Source: Rhodospirillaceae bacterium (GTDB taxonomy: Bacteria > Pseudomonadota > Alphaproteobacteria > UBA6615). Taken from it: a DNA stretch of 64,000 nucleotides. The DNA lies in the NCBI GenBank assembly GCA_002713365.1, contig PASR01000002.1, forward strand, positions 3,133-67,132, written 5' to 3'. The position numbers and the translations under genes are program-made. Every line of letters starts with the position of its first letter. Position 1 is the stretch's first letter. This document shows, one piece after another, positions 27,250 to 55,170 of this stretch. Below the pieces are notes generated by a model. That model was not told where the DNA came from, made no database searches, and worked only from the letters and a program-made list of their open reading frames with translations.

Positions 27250-27277
27250 TGATCCATAGTTTAAATAAAAACGTAAG
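27250..27277 (+). promoter_or_regulatory. ECF sigma-E-type promoter (TGATCC-N16-CGTAAG) upstream of the DUF2177 gene
   Basis: TGATCC at 27250-27255, 16-nt spacer, CGTAAG at 27272-27277. The C of CGTA lies 40 nt upstream of the ATG at 27312, which has a GAGG SD. Confidence 0.65.
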
Positions 27278-27311: not shown

Positions 27312-27716
27312 ATGCTAAAAATCTATGCATTAGCATCTCTTTTTACTTTCCTTGTATTCATAATCGTTGATTTTATATGGTTAGCTAATGCAACTCGTTT
27401 CTTATATAAACCTCATATAGGTCCACTTTTGCTAGAAAAGCCTGTTCTACCTGCGGCTGCCATATTCTACATCCTTTATGTATTTGGACTGATATTTTTA
27501 GTTCTAAAGCCTGCAATTGATGCCAATTCTGTAATAAATGCTATTTGGTTAGGGGGGGTATTTGGTCTTGTGGCTTATGGCACCTATGATCTTACCAACT
27601 TAGCCACCATAAGAGGATGGTCAGTTACTGTCACACTAGTAGATATGGTGTGGGGAGCTTTCCTTACGGGTCTTTCAGCTGGTCTGGGTGTATGGATTGC
27701 ATTTAAGTTTAATTAA
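27312..27716 (+). CDS. DUF2177-like small membrane protein
   Basis: 134 aa with 4 hydrophobic helices. The VDFIWL...Y...G and GTYDLTN pattern is one I associate with DUF2177, a family co-occurring with sigma-E/ChrR regulons. Confidence 0.6.
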   Translation: MLKIYALASLFTFLVFIIVDFIWLANATRFLYKPHIGPLLLEKPVLPAAAIFYILYVFGLIFLVLKPAIDANSVINAIWLGGVFGLVAYGTYDLTNLATIRGWSVTVTLVDMVWGAFLTGLSAGLGVWIAFKFN

Positions 27717-27766: not shown

Positions 27767-28405
27767 TTATGAACCGCTTCCAATAATATTCATAAATTCT
27801 TGCCTAGTAGCGGGGTTTTCTCTGAATGAACCAAGCATATGGCTGGTATGCATGTCCACTCCTGGTTTATTAACACCTCGTGTAGTCATGCATTGATGTG
27901 ATGCCTGAACAATGACGCCAACTCCTCTAGGCGATAAAACATCATCAATAGTATTTGCTATTTGTGCTGTCATTTTTTCTTGTATCTGAAGGCGGCGGGC
28001 ATAGACTTCTACTATTCGAGCCAATTTACTTATTCCGACAACACGCTGATCTGGAAGGTATCCTACATGTGCTTTACCGATTATAGGCGCCATATGGTGT
28101 TCGCAGTGACTAACGAATGATATATTGCTAAGTACAATCATTTCATCATAGCCCTCTGTTTCAGTAAATGTTCTCTCAAGTATGGCTATTGGATCTTGAG
28201 AGTAACCATTAAAAAACTCGTCATAAGAGCGCACCACTCTATCTGGGGTGCTTCTTAATCCTTGCCGGGTTACGTCTTCACCAGCGTAAGCTAGGAGAGT
28301 TCTTACAGCTCTAATGGCTGCTTCTTTAGGCGGCCTTTTATTGCCTATATACGGAGGTTTTTCTTTATCTTCCTCTACAGAAAAATTTAGATTATTTTTA
28401 GCCAT
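27767..28405 (-). CDS. folE: GTP cyclohydrolase I
   Basis: 212 aa with the FolE hallmark motifs [30 protein letters not shown] and [18 protein letters not shown] precedes the ATG. Confidence 0.95.
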
Positions 28406-28443
28406 TACGTGAGCTCCAAATTTTTTTTTATTTATTTAACGAT

Positions 28444-28518
28444 CCAGTATAGGACCGAGCTAATAGGGAGATACGAGCTCGGTCCAGATTTCTCGGGGGG
28501 GCCGGGAAATCTAACTGG
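28444..28518 (-). promoter_or_regulatory. Candidate structured RNA (three-way junction) in the folE 5' leader; unclassified
   Basis: P1 pairs CCAGT 28444-28448 with ACTGG 28514-28518. P2 pairs GGACCGAGCT 28452-28461 with AGCTCGGTCC 28476-28485 (perfect 10 bp, 14-nt loop). P3 pairs AGATTTCTCGG 28486-28496 with CCGGGAAATCT 28502-28512 (11 bp with one T-G/C-A position, 5-nt G/C loop). It is a GC-rich island in an AT-rich spacer, downstream of the folE sigma-E-type promoter. Strand is assigned from context only. Confidence 0.45.
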
Positions 28519-28549
28519 TTAAGACCTCAAGTAGTCTAAACTATTAAAA

Positions 28550-28577
28550 TATACGATAATTAAAATATTCTGGATCA
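28550..28577 (-). promoter_or_regulatory. ECF sigma-E-type promoter (TGATCC-N16-CGTATA) directed toward folE
   Basis: Read on the minus strand, TGATCC is at 28577-28572, followed by a 16-nt spacer and CGTATA at 28555-28550. This predicts a ~140-nt folE leader containing the structured element. Confidence 0.6.
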
Positions 28578-28635
28578 CTGTTAGATAAAACAAATTATTT
28601 TAAGTAGTAAATGTGTTTTATAAATAATCTATAGG

Positions 28636-28663
28636 TGATCTGTAATCATAACTTCTGCGTAAG
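28636..28663 (+). promoter_or_regulatory. ECF sigma-E-type promoter (TGATCT-N16-CGTAAG) directly abutting the SDR start codon
   Basis: TGATCT at 28636-28641, 16-nt spacer, CGTAAG at 28658-28663. The ATG at 28671 lies 13 nt after the C of CGTA, the same spacing as at rpoE. Confidence 0.6.
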
Positions 28664-28670
28664 AAAGGTG

Positions 28671-29480
28671 ATGATGTTATTGAACTCAATAAGATATAGA
28701 AACTTTAAAAATCCAAATGAATCACTTGCATGGATTACAGGGGCAAGTAAGGGTATTGGACGAGCTCTGGCTATTGAATTAGCTTCTAATGGATGGAAAG
28801 TTGCTGCGAGTGGAAGGAACTTAGATGAACTTAATAGCTTACTAAATAAAAATAAAGAGTGTTCTGGTAATATCTATATTTATCCATTTGATACTACTGA
28901 TGAGTCATTAGCCAAAGAAGTCTACACTAGGATTGAGAACGAACACGGACCTATTAGTTTGGCTATACTAAATGCAGGGACCCATAATCCAGTTGATGGC
29001 GAGTCTTTAGAGATAAAAAGCATTAAAAGAGTTATTAACACTAATCTAACGGGAACTGTTAATTGTCTTGTGCCTACTTTAGAAAGTTTCATTGCCAGAA
29101 GGTCAGGACATATAGCGGTTATGACCTCTCTTGCTGGATATCGTGGTTTGCCAACGGCTAGCGCTTATGGGGCTACAAAAGCGGCCTTAATTAATATGTG
29201 TGAGGCTTTACGCGTTGAGGTTGAAAAGTCGGGTGTGGTTATATCCATAATTTCCCCTGGATTCGTTAGAACTACATTAACTGATCGTAATTCTTTTCCT
29301 ATGCCATTTTTGATGGAACCAAAGGAGGCTGCAAAGAGAATTATTCGTGGATTAGAATCACACCGATTTGAAATCGCATTTCCACGCCGTTTTTATTATT
29401 TTATTAAAATATTACGTATCTTACCGTATACACTATTTTTCTTTATAACCCGTCGCCTCATTAATAAGAATAAGGGCTAA
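28671..29480 (+). CDS. Short-chain dehydrogenase/reductase
   Basis: TGASKGIGRALA cofactor motif, NAG, and the YGATKAAL catalytic motif. The track's GTG start at 28635 overlaps the promoter motif, so I prefer ATG 28671 (or 28674). Confidence 0.85.
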   Translation: MMLLNSIRYRNFKNPNESLAWITGASKGIGRALAIELASNGWKVAASGRNLDELNSLLNKNKECSGNIYIYPFDTTDESLAKEVYTRIENEHGPISLAILNAGTHNPVDGESLEIKSIKRVINTNLTGTVNCLVPTLESFIARRSGHIAVMTSLAGYRGLPTASAYGATKAALINMCEALRVEVEKSGVVISIISPGFVRTTLTDRNSFPMPFLMEPKEAAKRIIRGLESHRFEIAFPRRFYYFIKILRILPYTLFFFITRRLINKNKG

Positions 29481-32994: not shown

Positions 32995-33669
32995 ATGTTG
33001 CAGATTATGACCAGGCCAGAATTAAGTATAAACCCATATATAGGGTCCGATTTATTAAAATCGTTAACAAGTCTTTGGATTAATCAAGCTTTGCAAAAAC
33101 CAATACAAAACAAACAACCTACAGATCCAATTGACTGGTCAAATGTTTTAGGCAGGGTTGCTGATGTTGGAGATGTAGAAGCTTTTAAGAGCATATTCGA
33201 ATATTTTGCTCCTAGGGTGAAAGCCTATATTATGCGTTTAGATTGTGACAGCTTGGTTGCTGAGGAACTAACGCAGGAGGTTATGTCAATTGTTTGGCGC
33301 AAAGCCAAGCAATATGACTCATCTAAAGCTGCAGCATCTACATGGATATTCACGATTGCCAGAAATCTCAGAATAGATACATTCCGAAAAGAAAAACGCC
33401 CAGATCTTGACCCATATGATCCCTCTTTGGCGCCTGATCCAGATATTTCTTCGGAAGATGTAGTGTTCGCTAAACAAAAAGCAGCACGCCTTAATACAGA
33501 AATTAAAAAGCTGCCCAGTGAACAAAGGCAAGTACTACATATGTCATTTTATGACGATATTAGTCATGCTGAGATTGCTAATCAGCTTAACTTGCCCCTT
33601 GGAACAGTAAAATCCAGAATAAGGTTAGCCTTTCAACGTATAAAAAATTCTCTTGGAGAAGAATTGTGA
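32995..33669 (+). CDS. rpoE: ECF-type RNA polymerase sigma factor (RpoE of the ChrR-partnered group)
   Basis: Region 2 (FEYFAPRVKAYIMRL...ELTQEVMSIVWRKA...STWIFTIARNLRIDTFRKEKRP) and region 4 (QRQVLHMSFYDDISHAEIANQLNLPLGTVKSRIRLA) closely parallel R. sphaeroides RpoE. Its stop overlaps the chrR start (GTGA). Confidence 0.9.
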   Translation: MLQIMTRPELSINPYIGSDLLKSLTSLWINQALQKPIQNKQPTDPIDWSNVLGRVADVGDVEAFKSIFEYFAPRVKAYIMRLDCDSLVAEELTQEVMSIVWRKAKQYDSSKAAASTWIFTIARNLRIDTFRKEKRPDLDPYDPSLAPDPDISSEDVVFAKQKAARLNTEIKKLPSEQRQVLHMSFYDDISHAEIANQLNLPLGTVKSRIRLAFQRIKNSLGEEL

Positions 33670-34322
33670 TTATTAACCACCACCCACCGGAAGACTTATT
33701 ATTTGCATACTCTGCAGGAGATCTCGCAGAGGCATGGTCATTGATGATAGCCACACACGTATCACTGTGTTCGAGCTGTAGACATCAAATGTTCGATGCA
33801 GAGGCTATAGGTGGCTCTTTAATAGAAAATATAACGCCAGAATTATTAGAAAATGATATTTATGAAAAAACGCTGGCAATTGTAAAAAATGAAGAGCAAT
33901 TAGCTAAACCTGAACTTTTAAGTCAAAGTGATTATTCTGATGTTCTGCCTTATCCTCTGCTTCAGTACACTCGAGCTGATATAGATGATTTGCCTTGGAA
34001 AAGGTTAGGGAAAGATGCATTTCATATACCTCTTGTTAAAGGACGCAATGGAGAACTAGCCCGACTTCTTAGAATACAAGAAGGTAAAGCAGTGCCTGAA
34101 CATGGTCATAACGGAACAGAGCTGACAATGGTTTTGTCGGGAAGTTTTTCAGATGAAAATGGACAGTTTGTAAGAGGTGATGTTGAAACAGCTGATATAG
34201 ATGTTATCCATCAGCCTAGTGCTGATGCTGGTGAGGACTGTATCTGTTTAGTTGTAACAGATGCTCCTCTCGAGTTTACCTCTCCACTAGCTCGTTTATT
34301 TCAACGTTTTGTTAATATATAG
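33666..34322 (+). CDS. chrR: Anti-sigma-E factor ChrR (zinc-binding anti-sigma domain + C-terminal cupin)
   Basis: N-terminus HHPPEDLLFAYSAGDLAEAWSLMIATHVSLCSSC carries the H-x3-C-x2-C ZAS motif. The C-terminal cupin shows EHGHNGTELTMVLSGSF. Translationally coupled to rpoE. Confidence 0.9.
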   Translation: MIINHHPPEDLLFAYSAGDLAEAWSLMIATHVSLCSSCRHQMFDAEAIGGSLIENITPELLENDIYEKTLAIVKNEEQLAKPELLSQSDYSDVLPYPLLQYTRADIDDLPWKRLGKDAFHIPLVKGRNGELARLLRIQEGKAVPEHGHNGTELTMVLSGSFSDENGQFVRGDVETADIDVIHQPSADAGEDCICLVVTDAPLEFTSPLARLFQRFVNI

Positions 34323-52658: not shown

Positions 52659-54083
52659 GTGAGTAAAGGTTGGGTGAATAATTTATTAGCGTCAGGTGCA
52701 TTTATTATAGGGGTGTCTATGCTATCCCTTAATGTGAATGCAGGAGATACTCTTTATGGTGACTTCCCAGTTACATTAAAAGATTATAAGGGATCTAAAT
52801 CTAGTTCTGTTTCTTATACAGGTCAGATAGCGAGACATGTTCTCCATGATTCACTAAAAAAATTAGCGGGTAAAGGAAATGGTAGTGCCAACCCTGAACT
52901 CAAAGCAAAGATGATGAGTTATTATGGTGAGAAGACTCCTAATCGTGAGATAATTGCTCCCAAAACTAAGGGATCGTTTATAGTAAAGCAGACTAATGTC
53001 GATCAGATTAGTAAAAAGAAGAATTTATCGGGTAAAACTTATAAAGGCACTATCTCTGGTATGCCTAATAATATGACAGGGCCTGAATTAATTACATTTT
53101 GGATTGATAAAGCATCTTCAGCTAAAAAGGGTGTTGATAATAGAAATGGATATAACTACCCACAATTAATATCCAAATTTATAATGGGAGCAGTTTTCTA
53201 TAATCAGGCTGTAGATAATTACCTTGATGAGAAGCTTTCGGCTAATAAAAAACCTAATAACAAACCTTATAAAAAAGGTGCTGCTTACACAGGTAAGGAG
53301 CATAGTTGGGATGAAGCGTTTGGCTATTTTGGAATGCCTGCGCATGGACTTTCTTTATCTCCAGGTCAGCTCTATTCTATAGCTAAACAGAAGCCCGAAG
53401 GTTTTGAAGCTGCAGACCACAATGGTGATGGTAAGGTCGATTTATATAAGGAAATGATGTTTGCACCTGCTTACTATGCTGCTGGTTATGATAAATCTAA
53501 GAAAACATCATATGCTAAAAATATTGGGCATGCATTTCTTAATGGCCGTCGTGTGATAACGAATGCTGATGGAGCCGTACTGACTGATGCGCAACGTAAT
53601 AAACTGAGAGATTACGCCGCCATAATTGAATCGAATTGGCAAAAAACTTTGGCTGAATCTGTATTTAAATATGCAGGCTCGGTTTATAAAGACTTGAAAA
53701 AAATAAATGAAACTATGGCCACTGAAAAGGGTTCTGATAAATACGAGAAAAAATATATTAAGCACTGGGGTGAGCTAAAAGGTTTTAGTCTATCATTGCA
53801 GACTGGACGTGTTCAGCTGGGAGAGACCGCCGTTAAACTTAACCGTCTAATCGGTTTTGGACCTGTTTTACCAAACTCTAGCCAGGTAGTTGATATTGAT
53901 AGTAAAGGAAACTACGTAAAAGGTGAGTCATCAGGTATAGAAGAGTACATGGTCCACATGCTTAAAGTACAAAAACTAATGGTCGATAAGTTTGATGTTA
54001 AGGCACGAAAAAATGATCAACTTGCTGGTATGGCTGAAATGCTGAAAAAATTGGGAGATGGTGCTTCAGCTGAAAATGATTAG
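52659..54083 (+). CDS. Exported iron-regulated protein, DUF4856-like (tentative), with EF-hand-like DHNGDGKVD loop
   Basis: 474 aa. GTG start with SD AGGAGG 5 nt upstream, and a signal peptide ending in NVNA-GD. The EHSWDEAFGYFG motif is what I associate with DUF4856 and imelysin-neighbourhood proteins. It is the first gene downstream of the Fur box. Confidence 0.5.
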   Translation: MSKGWVNNLLASGAFIIGVSMLSLNVNAGDTLYGDFPVTLKDYKGSKSSSVSYTGQIARHVLHDSLKKLAGKGNGSANPELKAKMMSYYGEKTPNREIIAPKTKGSFIVKQTNVDQISKKKNLSGKTYKGTISGMPNNMTGPELITFWIDKASSAKKGVDNRNGYNYPQLISKFIMGAVFYNQAVDNYLDEKLSANKKPNNKPYKKGAAYTGKEHSWDEAFGYFGMPAHGLSLSPGQLYSIAKQKPEGFEAADHNGDGKVDLYKEMMFAPAYYAAGYDKSKKTSYAKNIGHAFLNGRRVITNADGAVLTDAQRNKLRDYAAIIESNWQKTLAESVFKYAGSVYKDLKKINETMATEKGSDKYEKKYIKHWGELKGFSLSLQTGRVQLGETAVKLNRLIGFGPVLPNSSQVVDIDSKGNYVKGESSGIEEYMVHMLKVQKLMVDKFDVKARKNDQLAGMAEMLKKLGDGASAEND

Positions 54084-54089
54084 AAAAAT

Positions 54090-54131
54090 AAAGTATTTGG
54101 TCATCCATAGAATTGGGTGGCCAAATACTTT
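54090..54131 (+). terminator. Long imperfect hairpin after the first gene of the iron operon (attenuator/terminator-like)
   Basis: AAAGTATTTGG (54090-54100) pairs perfectly with CCAAATACTTT (54121-54131), and the inner arms TCATCCA/TGGGTGG pair partially. It is followed by TATGTT. Confidence 0.4.
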
Positions 54132-54156
54132 ATGTTAAGATTGAGTTCCACTTATT

Positions 54157-55170
54157 ATGATTGACTGGTTTTTTGATGATTATATTCAAAAACTTATTAT
54201 ATCATTTACTAACCCTCAGAAGAGAGTTTCTATAGGATATATAGGTACTGCTATTTTAATTGCACTTTTTTGGAGTGTTTGCTTGCAAGGAGCTAAATGG
54301 CGATGTGGGATTTCAAATACGATACGAAAACTATTTAGCAGAAATATTTTACTGTCATTATCAGCAAAAGCTGATTACCAAATAATGTTAATTAATCATG
54401 GCTTTTTATTGCTAGCTGCACCATTTTTAATTAGCAAAGTCGCATTTACAACTTATCTTTTCTTTTTACTGCATGAATTGTTTCCGTCTGGGTCTGCCTT
54501 CCTATCGCCGCTTCCAATTTTAATTGTTTCTATACTATACACAATATTTTTGTTTTTATTGGATGATTTTTCTAAATACTTTACTCATAGTATGATGCAC
54601 CGTATTCCCTGTTTATGGTCTTTTCATAAAGTTCATCATTCAGCTGAAGTATTGACCCCGATTACGGTATATCGAACCCATCCTTTGGAAGCGATTATTT
54701 TTTCATTTAGAGGAATTTTTGTTCAGGCTACATCAATATCGCTATTTGTTTATTTATGTGGCGATAAAATTGATTTAATATCAATTTATGGGGTTAATAT
54801 TTTTCTTTTTTTATTCAATATTACTGGTGCCAATCTTCGTCATTCGCATGTACAAATCAGTTATGGGAAGATCTTAGAAAAATTAATAATATCACCAGCT
54901 CAGCATCAGATACATCATTCAATTAATTCCTCGCATCATGGAAGAAACTTTGGGGCTGCTCTAGCTATCTGGGATCTAATGTTTGGTACTTTGTTTTTGT
55001 CTGAAAAAAACATGAATTTAGTTTTTGGCTTAAATAAGAAATTAAATCCTGAGACTCATAGATTACTAAATATTTATATACTGCCTTTTAAGGAATCGAT
55101 GCTTAGTTTTGCAGGTTTACGATTAGGTAGCCAACTATCAAAGAAGAAAGATATTAGAAATGCGGTTTAG
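54157..55170 (+). CDS. Fatty acid hydroxylase / sterol desaturase superfamily membrane di-iron enzyme
   Basis: 337 aa with several hydrophobic helices and the three His boxes HSMMH, HKVHH and HQIHH. It overlaps the fbpA start by 11 nt. Confidence 0.75.
   Translation: MIDWFFDDYIQKLIISFTNPQKRVSIGYIGTAILIALFWSVCLQGAKWRCGISNTIRKLFSRNILLSLSAKADYQIMLINHGFLLLAAPFLISKVAFTTYLFFLLHELFPSGSAFLSPLPILIVSILYTIFLFLLDDFSKYFTHSMMHRIPCLWSFHKVHHSAEVLTPITVYRTHPLEAIIFSFRGIFVQATSISLFVYLCGDKIDLISIYGVNIFLFLFNITGANLRHSHVQISYGKILEKLIISPAQHQIHHSINSSHHGRNFGAALAIWDLMFGTLFLSEKNMNLVFGLNKKLNPETHRLLNIYILPFKESMLSFAGLRLGSQLSKKKDIRNAV

What the first reader, a model, noticed from the sequence alone, without database searches (positions are those of the whole stretch)
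28444..28518. GC-rich 75-nt three-way-junction RNA element inside the predicted folE leader
Seen in sequence: an island of high GC sits in an otherwise AT-rich 229-nt spacer and folds into three helices that abut each other.
- P1: 5 bp (28444-28448 with 28514-28518).
- P2: perfect 10 bp (28452-28461 with 28476-28485), 14-nt loop.
- P3: 11 bp (28486-28496 with 28502-28512), 5-nt homopolymer loop.
- Junction strands are only 3, 0 and 1 nt long.

The element lies about 25 nt downstream of the expected start of the sigma-E-type folE promoter and about 40 nt upstream of the folE SD. On the folE (minus) strand, the P2 loop contains CUCCC and P2 contains GAGCUC. Both are complementary to the folE SD region (UGGAGCUC at 28418-28411), so an SD-sequestering alternative pairing is possible.

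Strand caveat: the single non-Watson-Crick position in P3 is a U-G wobble on the plus strand and a C-A mismatch on the minus strand. The strand of the functional RNA is therefore not settled.

Established knowledge: a folE-associated riboswitch (folE motif / THF-II) exists in Alphaproteobacteria, but I recall it as a single irregular hairpin rather than a three-way junction. I do not claim identity with it.
Basis: partly seen in the sequence, partly recalled or inferred. Interest (0 to 1): 0.65.

Follow-up and report, generated by a model that had tools for sequence, protein, structure and literature searches.

The report
Conserved structured RNA leader of folE
A 75-nt GC-rich three-helix RNA fold sits in the transcribed 5' leader of a stress-induced GTP cyclohydrolase I (folE) gene of uncultured marine Alphaproteobacteria; it is conserved with compensatory changes in related lineages, matches no described RNA family, and is most likely an undescribed cis-acting control element of folE expression.

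Summary
At 28444-28518 three helices form a tight three-way junction. It is the minimum-energy fold on both strands (z -5.4 to -6.8), has 56% GC in a 24-25% GC spacer, and occurs once in the window.

The functional strand is the folE (minus) strand. In 12 metatranscriptomes the contigs run from folE through the element, reach at most 28542 and leave 28543-28639 empty. That end lies 10 nt downstream of a sigma-E/ChrR-type promoter (TGATCC-N16-CGTA).

The element recurs directly upstream of folE in three lineages (FolE identity 88%, 76%, 69%). One of these places it between a same-strand fasciclin gene and folE, so it travels with folE and not with the promoter or the SDR gene. Each homologue folds to the same junction on its own. 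Against the 88% relative the element is 96% identical, versus 55% at four-fold sites. P2 shows C-G/U-A and A-U/G-C swaps.

It is not THF-II, not any Rfam family and not a repeat. The proposed SD-sequestering pairing is no better than shuffled controls.

Best reading: a new, narrowly distributed cis-regulatory leader RNA whose conserved C-rich P2 loop is the likely effector. The mechanism is not established. A new riboswitch class is not excluded.

The parts
28572..28577 (-). -35-like box TGATCC of the sigma-E/ChrR-type folE promoter
   Evidence: An exact TGATCC-N16-CGTA match. There are only 2 in the 64 kb, against 0.23 expected. The same motif is present in the relatives L089 and L189.
28552..28555 (-). 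-10-like box CGTA of the same promoter
   Evidence: The deepest metatranscriptome contig ends 10 nt downstream, at 28542. In L189 a template-switch oligo marks the RNA 5' end 9 nt after its CGTA.
28519..28542 (-). 5' flank of the leader, from the inferred transcription start (about 28542) to P1
   Evidence: RNA contigs reach 28542, 28534 and 28524 and never go beyond. The 28519-28545 segment that contains this flank is 93% identical to the 88%-FolE relative, versus 55% at four-fold sites.
28514..28518 (-). P1, 5' strand (CCAGU on the RNA)
   Evidence: It pairs with 28444-28448. The equivalents are CAGUGA/UCACUG in the L092 family and GAGG/CCUC in L189.
28486..28512 (-).
   Evidence: The lower stem AUUUC/GAAAU is conserved in all lineages. 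The mismatch is kept as C.U in the L092 family.
28452..28485 (-). Second hairpin on the RNA (P2): GGACCGAGCU / 14-nt loop / AGCUCGGUCC. It is the most conserved module.
   Evidence: 98% of cells are paired across 11 sequences, with C-G/U-A and A-U/G-C swaps at two positions. A P2-like hairpin also occurs in L181 and L188.
28462..28475 (-). P2 loop CGUAUCUCCCUAUU with the C-rich core CUCCC (28470-28466)
   Evidence: The core UAUCUCCCU is invariant within the window lineage. The loop is C-rich in every lineage: CUCCCCC, CCCCCA, CUCCCCA, CCCCUUCCCC. Population variants hit only loop edges, at 28464 and 28475.
28444..28448 (-). P1, 3' strand (ACUGG on the RNA)
   Evidence: The neighbouring variant 28443 T>A lengthens P1 to 7 bp in L081 and L096.
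28406..28443 (-). A-rich, poorly conserved linker carrying the folE SD (GGAG 28417-28414)
   Evidence: It is 58% identical to the 88% relative, which is about the neutral level. Its length varies from 38 to 57 nt between lineages.
27767..28405 (-). folE, GTP cyclohydrolase I (212 aa)
   Evidence: Pfam PF01227, E 1.7e-72. RNA contigs are continuous from the coding region into the element.

Best explanation
The element is a cis-acting structured domain of the folE mRNA leader.

Transcription and placement:
- Transcription starts at a sigma-E/ChrR-type (photo-oxidative stress) promoter, near 28542 on the minus strand.
- 24 nt later the RNA folds into a compact, very stable three-way junction: P1 of 5-7 bp encloses two abutting hairpins.
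- A 38-nt A-rich linker then carries the SD and start codon of GTP cyclohydrolase I.

Proposed mechanism:
- The junction acts as a rigid scaffold that presents a conserved C-rich, anti-SD-like apical loop on P2 and a sequence-conserved P2 stem.
- A partner reads these features and sets how much FolE is made from the stress-induced transcript, through translation initiation and/or mRNA lifetime.
- The partner could be the purine-rich ribosome-binding region, a protein, a small RNA or a small ligand.

Status of each step:
- Shown: the fold, its transcription as part of the folE mRNA, its strict linkage to folE in three lineages, purifying selection on stems and loops, and compensatory changes.
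- Inferred: that it regulates, that the C-rich loop is the effector, and at which level it acts.
For: Structure:
- The fold is the MFE and centroid, z -6.8.
- Homologues from three other lineages each fold on their own into the same junction, z -4.6 to -7.8.
- RNAalifold recovers the three helices from a structure-blind MAFFT alignment and from the model-based one.
- 89% of cells are paired, against 23-46% when partners are slid. Nine pairs have changes on both sides. In 0 of 500 shuffles is the covariation score reached.

Transcription and strand:
- In 12 of 12 metatranscriptomes, contigs run from the folE coding region into the element. Their upstream ends lie at 28542, 28534, 28524, 28516, 28512 (twice), 28505 (twice) and further in.
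- None of those contigs covers 28543-28639. DNA metagenome contigs span that whole spacer.
- The SDR transcript contigs begin at 28670, 9 nt after that gene's own TGATCT-N16-CGTA.
- In the L189 lineage a template-switch oligo marks the RNA 5' end at the first base of P1, 9 nt after CGTA.

Linkage to folE:
- In the L092, L176 and L180 lineage (FolE 76%) the sigma-E promoter precedes a fasciclin gene. The element lies in the 141-nt fasciclin-folE spacer.
- In the window, L089 and L189 lineages it lies between the promoter and folE.

Selection (window versus L089):
- Element 96% identical and 5' flank 93%.
- Linker 58% and four-fold degenerate folE sites 55%.
- Both loops are also conserved (13/14 and 5/5 positions).
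- All population variants inside the element fall in loops or junction: 28449, 28464, 28475.

Context:
- An ECF sigma factor and a ChrR anti-sigma factor are encoded 4.5 kb away.
- folE2, fasciclin, SDR, CFA synthase and photolyase are RpoE-regulon members in Rhodobacter sphaeroides (PMC7074977).
- Of 149 folE loci, 10 have the sigma-E promoter. Only the element-bearing ones have leaders longer than 100 nt.
Against: - No regulatory output has been measured.
- Only three independent lineages carry the full junction. Several counted compensatory changes are therefore single events, and P1 is kept in shifting registers rather than by clean swaps.
- In L181 and L188 only a P2-like hairpin is present.
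- Complementarity between the leader and the SD region is not above shuffled controls.
- It does not co-vary. L176 lost the U of CUCC and L095 has GGUG as its SD, neither with a compensating change.
- The junction strands are 0-3 nt long and not conserved, so there is no obvious ligand pocket.
- The distance to the SD varies (26-45 nt), and the position relative to the 5' end varies: +1, +25, or intercistronic.
- The contigs carry no strand information, so the direction of the RNA is inferred from contiguity.
Confidence: 0.55

Rival explanations
1. It is the aptamer of a new riboswitch class. The junction binds a small molecule linked to FolE chemistry or to photo-oxidative stress, such as a reduced pterin or folate (for example the methenyl-THF antenna of photolyase), GTP or its oxidation products. 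Lineage-specific sequences downstream convert binding into a change in translation.
For: - It is a conserved, autonomously folding domain upstream of the first enzyme of a cofactor pathway, with variable downstream linkers, as is typical of an aptamer plus expression platforms.
- In L189 the closed-P1 state and a state in which the P1 3' strand pairs with the SD region differ by only 1.6 kcal/mol.
- In L181 the P2 hairpin is followed by a U-tract, which looks like a terminator.
- A riboswitch on folE has precedent in THF-II (PMC6800512).
Against: - Junction strands are 0-3 nt and unconserved. Conservation sits in the helices and one apical loop rather than in internal loops.
- No consistent switching helix exists across lineages.
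- The motif was found with one gene only, and in few lineages.
- There is no match to any riboswitch model, even at E up to 10.
Confidence: 0.15
2. It is a purely structural mRNA stabiliser or processing determinant. A stable obstacle ahead of folE blocks 5'-end-dependent attack and scanning by RNase E, or defines the 5' end of a processed folE segment in the fasciclin-folE operon. This would prolong the life of a stress-induced message.
For: - The fold is very stable (-24 to -41 kcal/mol) and always lies 5' of folE.
- In L189 the first transcribed base is already paired in P1.
- In the L092 family it is intercistronic.
- In one metatranscriptome (X54) the leader is covered at 50-65x, versus 9-24x or less for the coding region.
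Against: - A mere obstacle would not need a conserved loop sequence. The P2 loop is 13/14 and the P3 loop 5/5 identical where neutral sites are 55%.
- The C-rich core of the loop survives a change of genome GC from about 37% to about 60%.
- In the window lineage 24 unpaired nucleotides precede the fold, which defeats 5'-end protection.
- No leader excess is seen in the window-lineage runs.
Confidence: 0.18
3. It is, or gives rise to, a trans-acting small RNA of the photo-oxidative stress regulon. Its C-rich loop would be an anti-SD seed that represses other mRNAs, as in the CcsR/cuckoo and AbcR sRNAs of Alphaproteobacteria.
For: - A C-rich apical loop (CUCCC or CUCCCCC) sits on a stable hairpin under a stress sigma factor.
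- In L181 the P2 hairpin carries a U-tract. In L183 and L187 the same fasciclin-folE spacer holds CCUCCUCCC-like tracts plus a canonical terminator.
- There is a leader excess in run X54.
Against: - The element keeps its position next to folE rather than next to the promoter when gene order changes, which a trans-acting RNA does not need.
- The window, L089, L092 and L189 lineages have no terminator after it.
- RNA contigs are continuous into folE.
- No Rfam sRNA family matches.
Confidence: 0.08
4. It acts at the DNA level. It would be a palindromic operator for a dimeric regulator between the divergent folE and SDR promoters, or a REP/MITE-type mobile repeat.
For: - Two near-perfect inverted repeats are present.
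- G.U and C.A departures are equally frequent on the two strands.
- Symmetric half-site changes would mimic compensatory changes.
Against: - It lies downstream of the mapped transcription start, not between the promoters.
- In the L092 family it is 500 nt from the promoter, inside an operon.
- Three nested or adjacent helices with an enclosing P1 are not an operator layout.
- It is single-copy in the window, in about 200 loci and in four DNA metagenomes at 80% or more likeness.
Confidence: 0.03

Closest known systems
THF-II riboswitch (folE motif RNA)
   Same: It is a cis element in the 5' leader of folE (GTP cyclohydrolase I) in Alphaproteobacteria and presumably tunes FolE synthesis.
   Different: - THF-II is a single irregular hairpin (P1-P2) with conserved nucleotides in an asymmetric internal bulge.
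- Its RBS lies in the 3' strand of P1, it spans about 60 nt including the AUG, and it is found in Rhizobiales (PMC6800512).
- Here there is a three-way junction with almost no unpaired junction nucleotides, and the SD lies 26 nt beyond P1.
- The source is a Rhodospirillales-like marine MAG lineage.
- There is no covariance-model match even at E up to 10.
THF-I riboswitch and purine-type three-way-junction riboswitches
   Same: They share the three-helix junction topology, and THF-I shares the folate-related gene context.
   Different: - Those aptamers have long conserved junction strands and loop-loop or pseudoknot contacts.
- Here the junction strands are 0-3 nt, both loops are pyrimidine-rich and cannot pair with each other, and no Rfam match was found.
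CcsR (cuckoo) and AbcR-type alphaproteobacterial sRNAs with C-rich anti-SD loops
   Same: They also present C-rich loop motifs on stable hairpins. The CcsR sRNAs are linked to the photo-oxidative and heat-shock sigma cascade (my own knowledge of the Rhodobacter literature).
   Different: - Those are discrete trans-acting RNAs with their own terminators and a CCUCCUCCC motif.
- This element is part of an mRNA leader, has no terminator in the window, has only CUCCC, and matches no Rfam model.
5'-UTR stabiliser structures (for example the ompA leader) and obstacles to RNase E scanning
   Same: They are stable structures in a leader of about 137 nt upstream of an accessible A-rich RBS region.
   Different: Stabilisers need structure but not a conserved loop sequence. 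Here the loop sequence is conserved, and in the window lineage the fold is not 5'-terminal.
RpoE-ChrR (singlet-oxygen) regulon of Rhodobacter sphaeroides
   Same: - The same gene set is present: photolyase, SDR, DUF1365, CFA synthase and folE, with fasciclin in relatives.
- The promoter type is the same, and rpoE-chrR lie next to the cluster (PMC7074977).
   Different: That regulon is defined at the level of transcription. My paper searches found no structured folE leader reported for it.

Membership tests
THF-II riboswitch (folE motif) | Match to the Rfam covariance model | tested here: not met
   There is no hit at gathering score in the window. Nothing relevant appears at E up to 10 in 28300-28750. 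There is no hit in 20 related folE loci or in 7 element-bearing or neighbouring loci at E up to 5.
THF-II riboswitch (folE motif) | Single hairpin of P1 and P2 joined by an asymmetric internal bulge that holds the conserved nucleotides | tested here: not met
   The fold is a three-way junction with 0-3-nt junction strands, and conservation lies in helices and one apical loop. The definition is from PMC6800512.
THF-II riboswitch (folE motif) | Ribosome-binding site forms the 3' strand of P1 | tested here: not met
   The SD GGAG at 28417-28414 lies 26 nt downstream of the P1 3' strand at 28448-28444. The gap is 38-57 nt from P1 to the AUG in relatives.
THF-II riboswitch (folE motif) | Located immediately upstream of folE | tested here: met
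THF-II riboswitch (folE motif) | Binds THF, DHF or BH4 | not testable with these tools
   This needs in-line probing or ITC.
Riboswitch (generic) | Conserved, autonomously folding domain with covariation in a leader | tested here: met
   but from only three independent lineages.
Riboswitch (generic) | Conserved unpaired nucleotides able to form a ligand pocket | tested here: inconclusive
   The junction strands are unconserved: UAU, UAC, AAC or none. The only conserved unpaired features are the C-rich P2 loop and a 1x1 mismatch in P3.
Riboswitch (generic) | Mutually exclusive expression-platform pairing conserved across members | tested here: not met
   No SD complementarity above shuffles. 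Predicted SD pairing differs by lineage and by the folding window.
RpoE-ChrR regulon promoter | TGATCC-N16-18-CGTA upstream, with the transcript starting about 9-10 nt after CGTA | tested here: met
   An exact motif at 28577-28552. The RNA contig ends at 28542. In L189 a template-switch oligo marks a start 9 nt after CGTA.
RpoE-ChrR regulon promoter | Cognate ECF sigma and ChrR anti-sigma genes in the genome | tested here: met
   32995-33669 has Sigma70_r2 and r4 domains. 33666-34322 has the ChrR cupin domain PF12973.
CcsR/cuckoo-type sRNA | Rfam model match, CCUCCUCCC loop motif and own terminator | tested here: not met
   No Rfam hit. The loop has only CUCCC. No U-tract follows the element in the window.
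REP/MITE-type repeat | Many dispersed copies | tested here: not met
   There is one copy in 64 kb. No extra partial matches appear in four DNA metagenomes at 80% or more likeness. Whole genomes of the lineage could not be scanned.
Intrinsic terminator | GC-rich hairpin followed directly by a U-tract | tested here: not met
   An A-rich tract follows on the folE strand, and RNA contigs read through into folE. Only the L181 variant has a U-tract.

The most novel reading that the evidence does not exclude
The three-way junction is the aptamer of a previously unknown riboswitch class, or the operator of a dedicated RNA-binding protein. It would add a metabolite- or damage-sensing checkpoint to the singlet-oxygen (RpoE-ChrR) response, gating pterin or folate supply for photolyase and related enzymes in abundant uncultured marine Rhodospirillales-like bacteria.
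Probability: 0.15. Interest if true: 0.8.

Novelty: new variant of a known kind. Interest (0 to 1): 0.55.

Why it matters
Leader RNAs upstream of cofactor-pathway genes have repeatedly turned out to be riboswitches. The one validated folE-specific class (THF-II) is reported from Rhizobiales and metagenomic sequences (PMC6800512).

This element is a second, structurally unrelated folE leader motif. It comes from uncultured ocean Alphaproteobacteria and sits inside the photo-oxidative stress regulon. It would mean that the sigma-E/ChrR response has a post-transcriptional layer, not just a transcriptional one.

It is directly testable, because the RNA is small, autonomous and already mapped to a transcript start. 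If it proves to be only a stabiliser it is ordinary. If it binds a ligand or protein it is a new regulatory class.

Tried and rejected
- **Rfam.** Nothing at gathering score in the window. Only noise at E up to 10 around the element and in relatives.
- **Repeat, MITE or REP.** No second copy was found by pattern, inverted-repeat or covariance-model search. No partial matches appeared in DNA metagenomes.
- **SD sequestration.** I tested pairing by the P2 loop, by P2 GAGCUC and by the 5' flank. Duplex energies against shuffles were not significant. The helix between the 5' flank and the SD seen with 40 nt of coding sequence disappears with 30 nt.
- **Strand from wobble pairs.** G.U and C.A are balanced, so this is uninformative.
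- **Wider family membership.**
  - Covariance models R1 and R2 found no further members among about 160 other folE loci from genomes and metagenomes.
  - Sequence searches with BLAST and nhmmer over the 80 genome-derived folE loci found nothing.
- **Viral contigs.**
  - Two pattern scans for the P2 hairpin returned over 230 GC-rich hairpins.
  - The covariance model was run only on the 20 loci that nhmmer ranked best.
  - Their scores are inflated by the pre-selection, and the best alignments carry little or no P3. The L351 match lies inside a 427-aa ORF.
  - I treat all of them as chance.
- **More variation within lineages.** Ten contigs of the L089 lineage are identical in the leader. The L189 lineage gave three variants.
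- **Literature.** My searches found no paper describing a structured folE or folE2 leader in the RpoE regulon.
Full report
**1. The observation**

- P1 is CCAGT/ACTGG, 5 bp.
- P2 is GGACCGAGCT/AGCTCGGTCC, a perfect 10 bp with a 14-nt loop.
- P3 is AGATTTCTCGG/CCGGGAAATCT, 11 positions with one T.G on the plus strand or C.A on the minus strand, and a homopolymer pentaloop.
- The junction strands are 3, 0 and 1 nt.

RNAfold gives this fold as MFE and centroid on either strand, with z-scores of -5.35 (plus) and -5.83 (minus) for 91 nt. For the 75-nt minus-strand RNA the z-score is -6.82, and no shuffle folds as well.

The element has 56% GC. The linker has 24%, the rest of the spacer 25% and the window 38%.

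It occurs once in the window. Mismatch-tolerant pattern searches, an inverted-repeat scan and a covariance-model scan find no second copy.

**2. Genomic setting**

The flanking genes are listed below.
- folE (27767-28405, minus; PF01227, E 1.7e-72)
- a divergent short-chain dehydrogenase (SDR)
- DUF2177
- a photolyase
- CFA synthase
- DUF1365
- an amine oxidase
- an ECF sigma factor (32995-33669) with a ChrR-type anti-sigma factor (33666-34322)

This is the gene set of the RpoE-ChrR singlet-oxygen regulon of Rhodobacter sphaeroides, which includes folE2, a fasciclin protein, an SDR, cfaS and phrA (PMC7074977).

The promoter motif TGATCC-N16-CGTA occurs exactly twice in 64 kb, against 0.23 expected. 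One copy precedes DUF2177. The other lies at 28577-28552 on the folE strand. A one-mismatch version, TGATCT-N16-CGTA (28636-28661), precedes the SDR gene.

The window matches Tara Oceans and other marine assemblies. Members of the same 90% FolE cluster are labelled as Rhodospirillales or Alphaproteobacteria MAGs.

**3. Is it transcribed, and on which strand?**

I laid the contigs of 12 marine metatranscriptomes on the region.
- In every run one contig runs from inside folE into the element.
- The upstream ends are 28542 (the deepest run, 53x), 28534, 28524, 28516, 28512 twice, 28505 twice, 28485, 28473 twice and 28446.
- None of these contigs covers 28543-28639.
- SDR contigs begin at 28670 in two runs, which is 9 nt after that gene's CGTA.
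- DNA metagenome contigs span the whole spacer, so the gap is a property of the RNA.

The folE 5' end is therefore near 28542, 10 nt after CGTA, and the leader is about 137 nt:
- a 24-nt 5' flank;
- the 75-nt junction;
- a 38-nt A-rich linker with the SD GGAG (28417-28414).

Contigs have no direction. The strand is inferred from contiguity with folE and from the comparative evidence in section 4.

**4. Relatives**

Loci with the same FolE protein carry the same leader with a few changes. I retrieved more distant relatives through FolE homologues and their contigs. A covariance model built from the first sequences then found the element in the lineages below.

| Lineage | FolE identity | Arrangement |
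|---|---|---|
| L089/L090 | 88% | same as the window |
| L092-L095, L176-L180 | 74-76% | GC-rich genomes; see below |
| L097 = L189-L198 | 69% | same synteny as the window; E 6e-6 |

In the L092 family the sigma-E promoter (TGATCC 2309-2314, CGTA 2331-2334 in L092) drives a fasciclin gene. The element lies in the 141-nt spacer between that same-strand gene and folE. The element therefore stays with folE when the promoter and the neighbouring gene change. This fixes the functional strand and argues for action in cis.

In L189 a metatranscriptome contig carries the SMART template-switch oligo sequence directly before position 1382. That is 9 nt after CGTA and is the first base of P1 (GAGG). There the junction starts at +1.

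Two further lineages, L181/L182 and L188, have only a P2-like hairpin with a C-rich loop. In L181 a U-tract follows it.

L183 and L187 lack the element and instead have C-rich tracts plus a canonical terminator.

About 160 other folE loci from genomes and metagenomes have no match. Only 10 of 149 folE loci carry the sigma-E promoter, and among these only the element-bearing ones have leaders longer than 100 nt.

**5. Evidence for a selected RNA structure**

Each homologue folds on its own into the same three-way junction.

| Sequence | MFE (kcal/mol) | z-score |
|---|---|---|
| L089 | -38.3 | -7.8 |
| L092 | -36.9 | -6.1 |
| L176 | -41.5 | -6.7 |
| L189, from its mapped start | -24.0 | -4.6 |

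RNAalifold predicts the three helices from a structure-blind MAFFT alignment and from the model-guided one.

On 11 distinct sequences:
- 89% of cells form standard pairs, against 23-46% when the 3' partners are slid by 1-3 columns;
- nine pairs have changes on both sides;
- none of 500 shuffles reaches the observed covariation score.

P2 is the best supported helix, with 98% of cells paired.
- Its fourth pair is C-G in the window lineage and U-A in the L095, L176, L180 and L189 lineages. L092 has the C.A intermediate.
- Its seventh pair alternates between A-U and G-C.

P3 keeps its lower stem AUUUC/GAAAU in sequence and varies at the top. Its mismatch is kept as C.A in the window lineage and as C.U in the L092 family.

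P1 is kept in shifting registers: CCAGU/ACUGG, CAGUGA/UCACUG and GAGG/CCUC. I count this as weaker evidence.

There are two caveats.
- There are only three independent lineages.
- One of the alignments is fitted to the model.

Selection is clear in the closest informative comparison, window versus L089.

| Region | Identity |
|---|---|
| Four-fold degenerate folE sites | 55% |
| Linker | 58% |
| SDR side of the spacer | 69% |
| Promoter | 81% |
| 5' flank | 93% |
| Element | 96% |

The loops are conserved too, 13/14 positions in P2 and 5/5 in P3. Variants seen in assemblies and metatranscriptomes inside the element (28449, 28464, 28475) fall in loops or junction. The variant at 28443 lengthens P1.

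**6. What it is not**

- *THF-II.* That motif is a P1-P2 hairpin with a conserved internal bulge and the RBS in P1, and it is known from Rhizobiales (PMC6800512). None of these features is present here, and the Rfam model does not match.
- *Any other Rfam family* (same calls).
- *A terminator.* An A-tract follows the element, and the RNA reads through into folE.
- *A repeat*.
- *A DNA operator.* It lies downstream of the mapped start in the window and inside an operon in the L092 family.

**7. How it may work**

The most distinctive conserved single-stranded feature is the C-rich apical part of the P2 loop.

| Lineage | P2 loop core |
|---|---|
| Window, L081, L089, L096 | UAUCUCCCU |
| L092, L095 | CUCCCCC |
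| L176 | CCCCCA |
| L180 | CUCCCCA |
| L189, L190 | CCCCU(U/C)CCCC |

It resembles an anti-SD sequence, and the folE SDs are GGAG or GGA. However, I could not show that it pairs with the SD.
- Duplex energies between leader and SD region are not better than with shuffled SD regions.
- The two natural changes that break CUCC:GGAG (L176 in the loop, L095 in the SD) are not compensated.
- Predicted SD occupancy depends on the lineage and on how much coding sequence is folded.

In L189 a closed-P1 state and a state in which the P1 3' strand pairs with the SD region differ by 1.6 kcal/mol. That resembles a riboswitch, but it is not seen in the other lineages.

The placement of the fold is variable.
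- Position relative to the 5' end: +1, +25 or intercistronic.
- Distance to the SD: 26-45 nt.

Together with the conserved loop sequence, this argues against a simple 5'-end protector and against direct steric occlusion.

I therefore commit to a cis-acting leader domain that works as a scaffold presenting the P2 stem-loop to a partner, which sets translation and/or stability of the stress-induced folE message (confidence 0.55).

The rivals and my confidence in each are:
- a structural stabiliser or processing determinant, 0.18;
- a new metabolite riboswitch, 0.15;
- a leader-derived trans-acting sRNA, 0.08;
- a DNA-level element, 0.03.

**8. Novelty and verdict**

The element is real, transcribed, conserved and undescribed in Rfam 15 and in the papers I could search. 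It is a new folE leader motif with a narrow distribution and an unproven mechanism. I rate it a new variant of a known kind, namely structured cis-regulatory leaders of cofactor-biosynthesis genes. I score interest at 0.55.

Noticed in passing
window 28636-28676 (+): The SDR gene has its own sigma-E-like promoter (TGATCT 28636-28641, N16, CGTA 28658-28661). Metatranscriptome contigs begin at 28670, at or within a few nucleotides of the candidate start codons GTG 28668, ATG 28671 and ATG 28674. The SDR mRNA may therefore be leaderless or nearly so. One run (X10) has a contig starting at 28640.
   Followed up: partly
window 27250-27275 (+): A second exact TGATCC-N16-CGTA motif lies 36 nt upstream of the DUF2177 gene (27312-27716). 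It suggests that this membrane protein also belongs to the sigma-E/ChrR regulon.
   Followed up: no
window 32995-34322 (+): An ECF sigma factor and a ChrR-type (Cupin_7) anti-sigma factor overlap by 4 nt, next to the DUF1365, CFA synthase and amine oxidase operon. This makes a complete singlet-oxygen response island.
   Followed up: partly
L187 about 1340-1450 and L183 about 1340-1445: In GC-rich relatives that lack the junction, the fasciclin-folE spacer carries CCUCCUCCC-like or C-rich tracts followed by a canonical intrinsic terminator. This could be a CcsR-like sRNA derived from a 3' UTR. No Rfam match was found.
   Followed up: partly
L181 1424-1475: A P2-like hairpin (GGACCGGGUUG ... CAACCCGGUCC, loop GUAUUUCCCGUACCCCCA) is followed by GGUUUUUU. 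In this lineage the conserved hairpin looks like a terminator or attenuator between fasciclin and folE.
   Followed up: partly
L189 1382-1617 (run X54): In one metatranscriptome the leader, including the junction, is assembled at 50-65x. The first part of the coding region is at about 24x and the rest at 0-9x. This may reflect a stable leader fragment or premature termination. It was not seen in runs of the window lineage.
   Followed up: partly
window 28516 (run X2): One RNA contig continues beyond 28516 into 28 unrelated letters (CCTTCCGGCGTGGATTCCAGCTTAGAGG). It is probably an assembly chimera, but it remains unexplained.
   Followed up: no
window 54085-54136: This is the longest inverted repeat of the window, with 23-nt arms, 87% complementarity and a 6-nt loop. 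It starts right after the stop of ORF 52659-54083 and precedes ORF 54157-55170, so it is possibly a terminator or intercistronic hairpin.
   Followed up: no
window 1-64000: The 64 kb contain no tRNA genes and no Rfam family at gathering score.
   Followed up: yes
L092 2944-3000 and the homologous stretch in L095, L176 and L180: The linker between the junction and folE is itself well conserved within this family (GCGCCCYGUCGGSGUUCUUACCAAARGU). It can form a small extra hairpin (GCGUAY...RUGCGC) that overlaps an alternative GCGCC...GGCGU pairing. This may be a lineage-specific expression platform.
   Followed up: no
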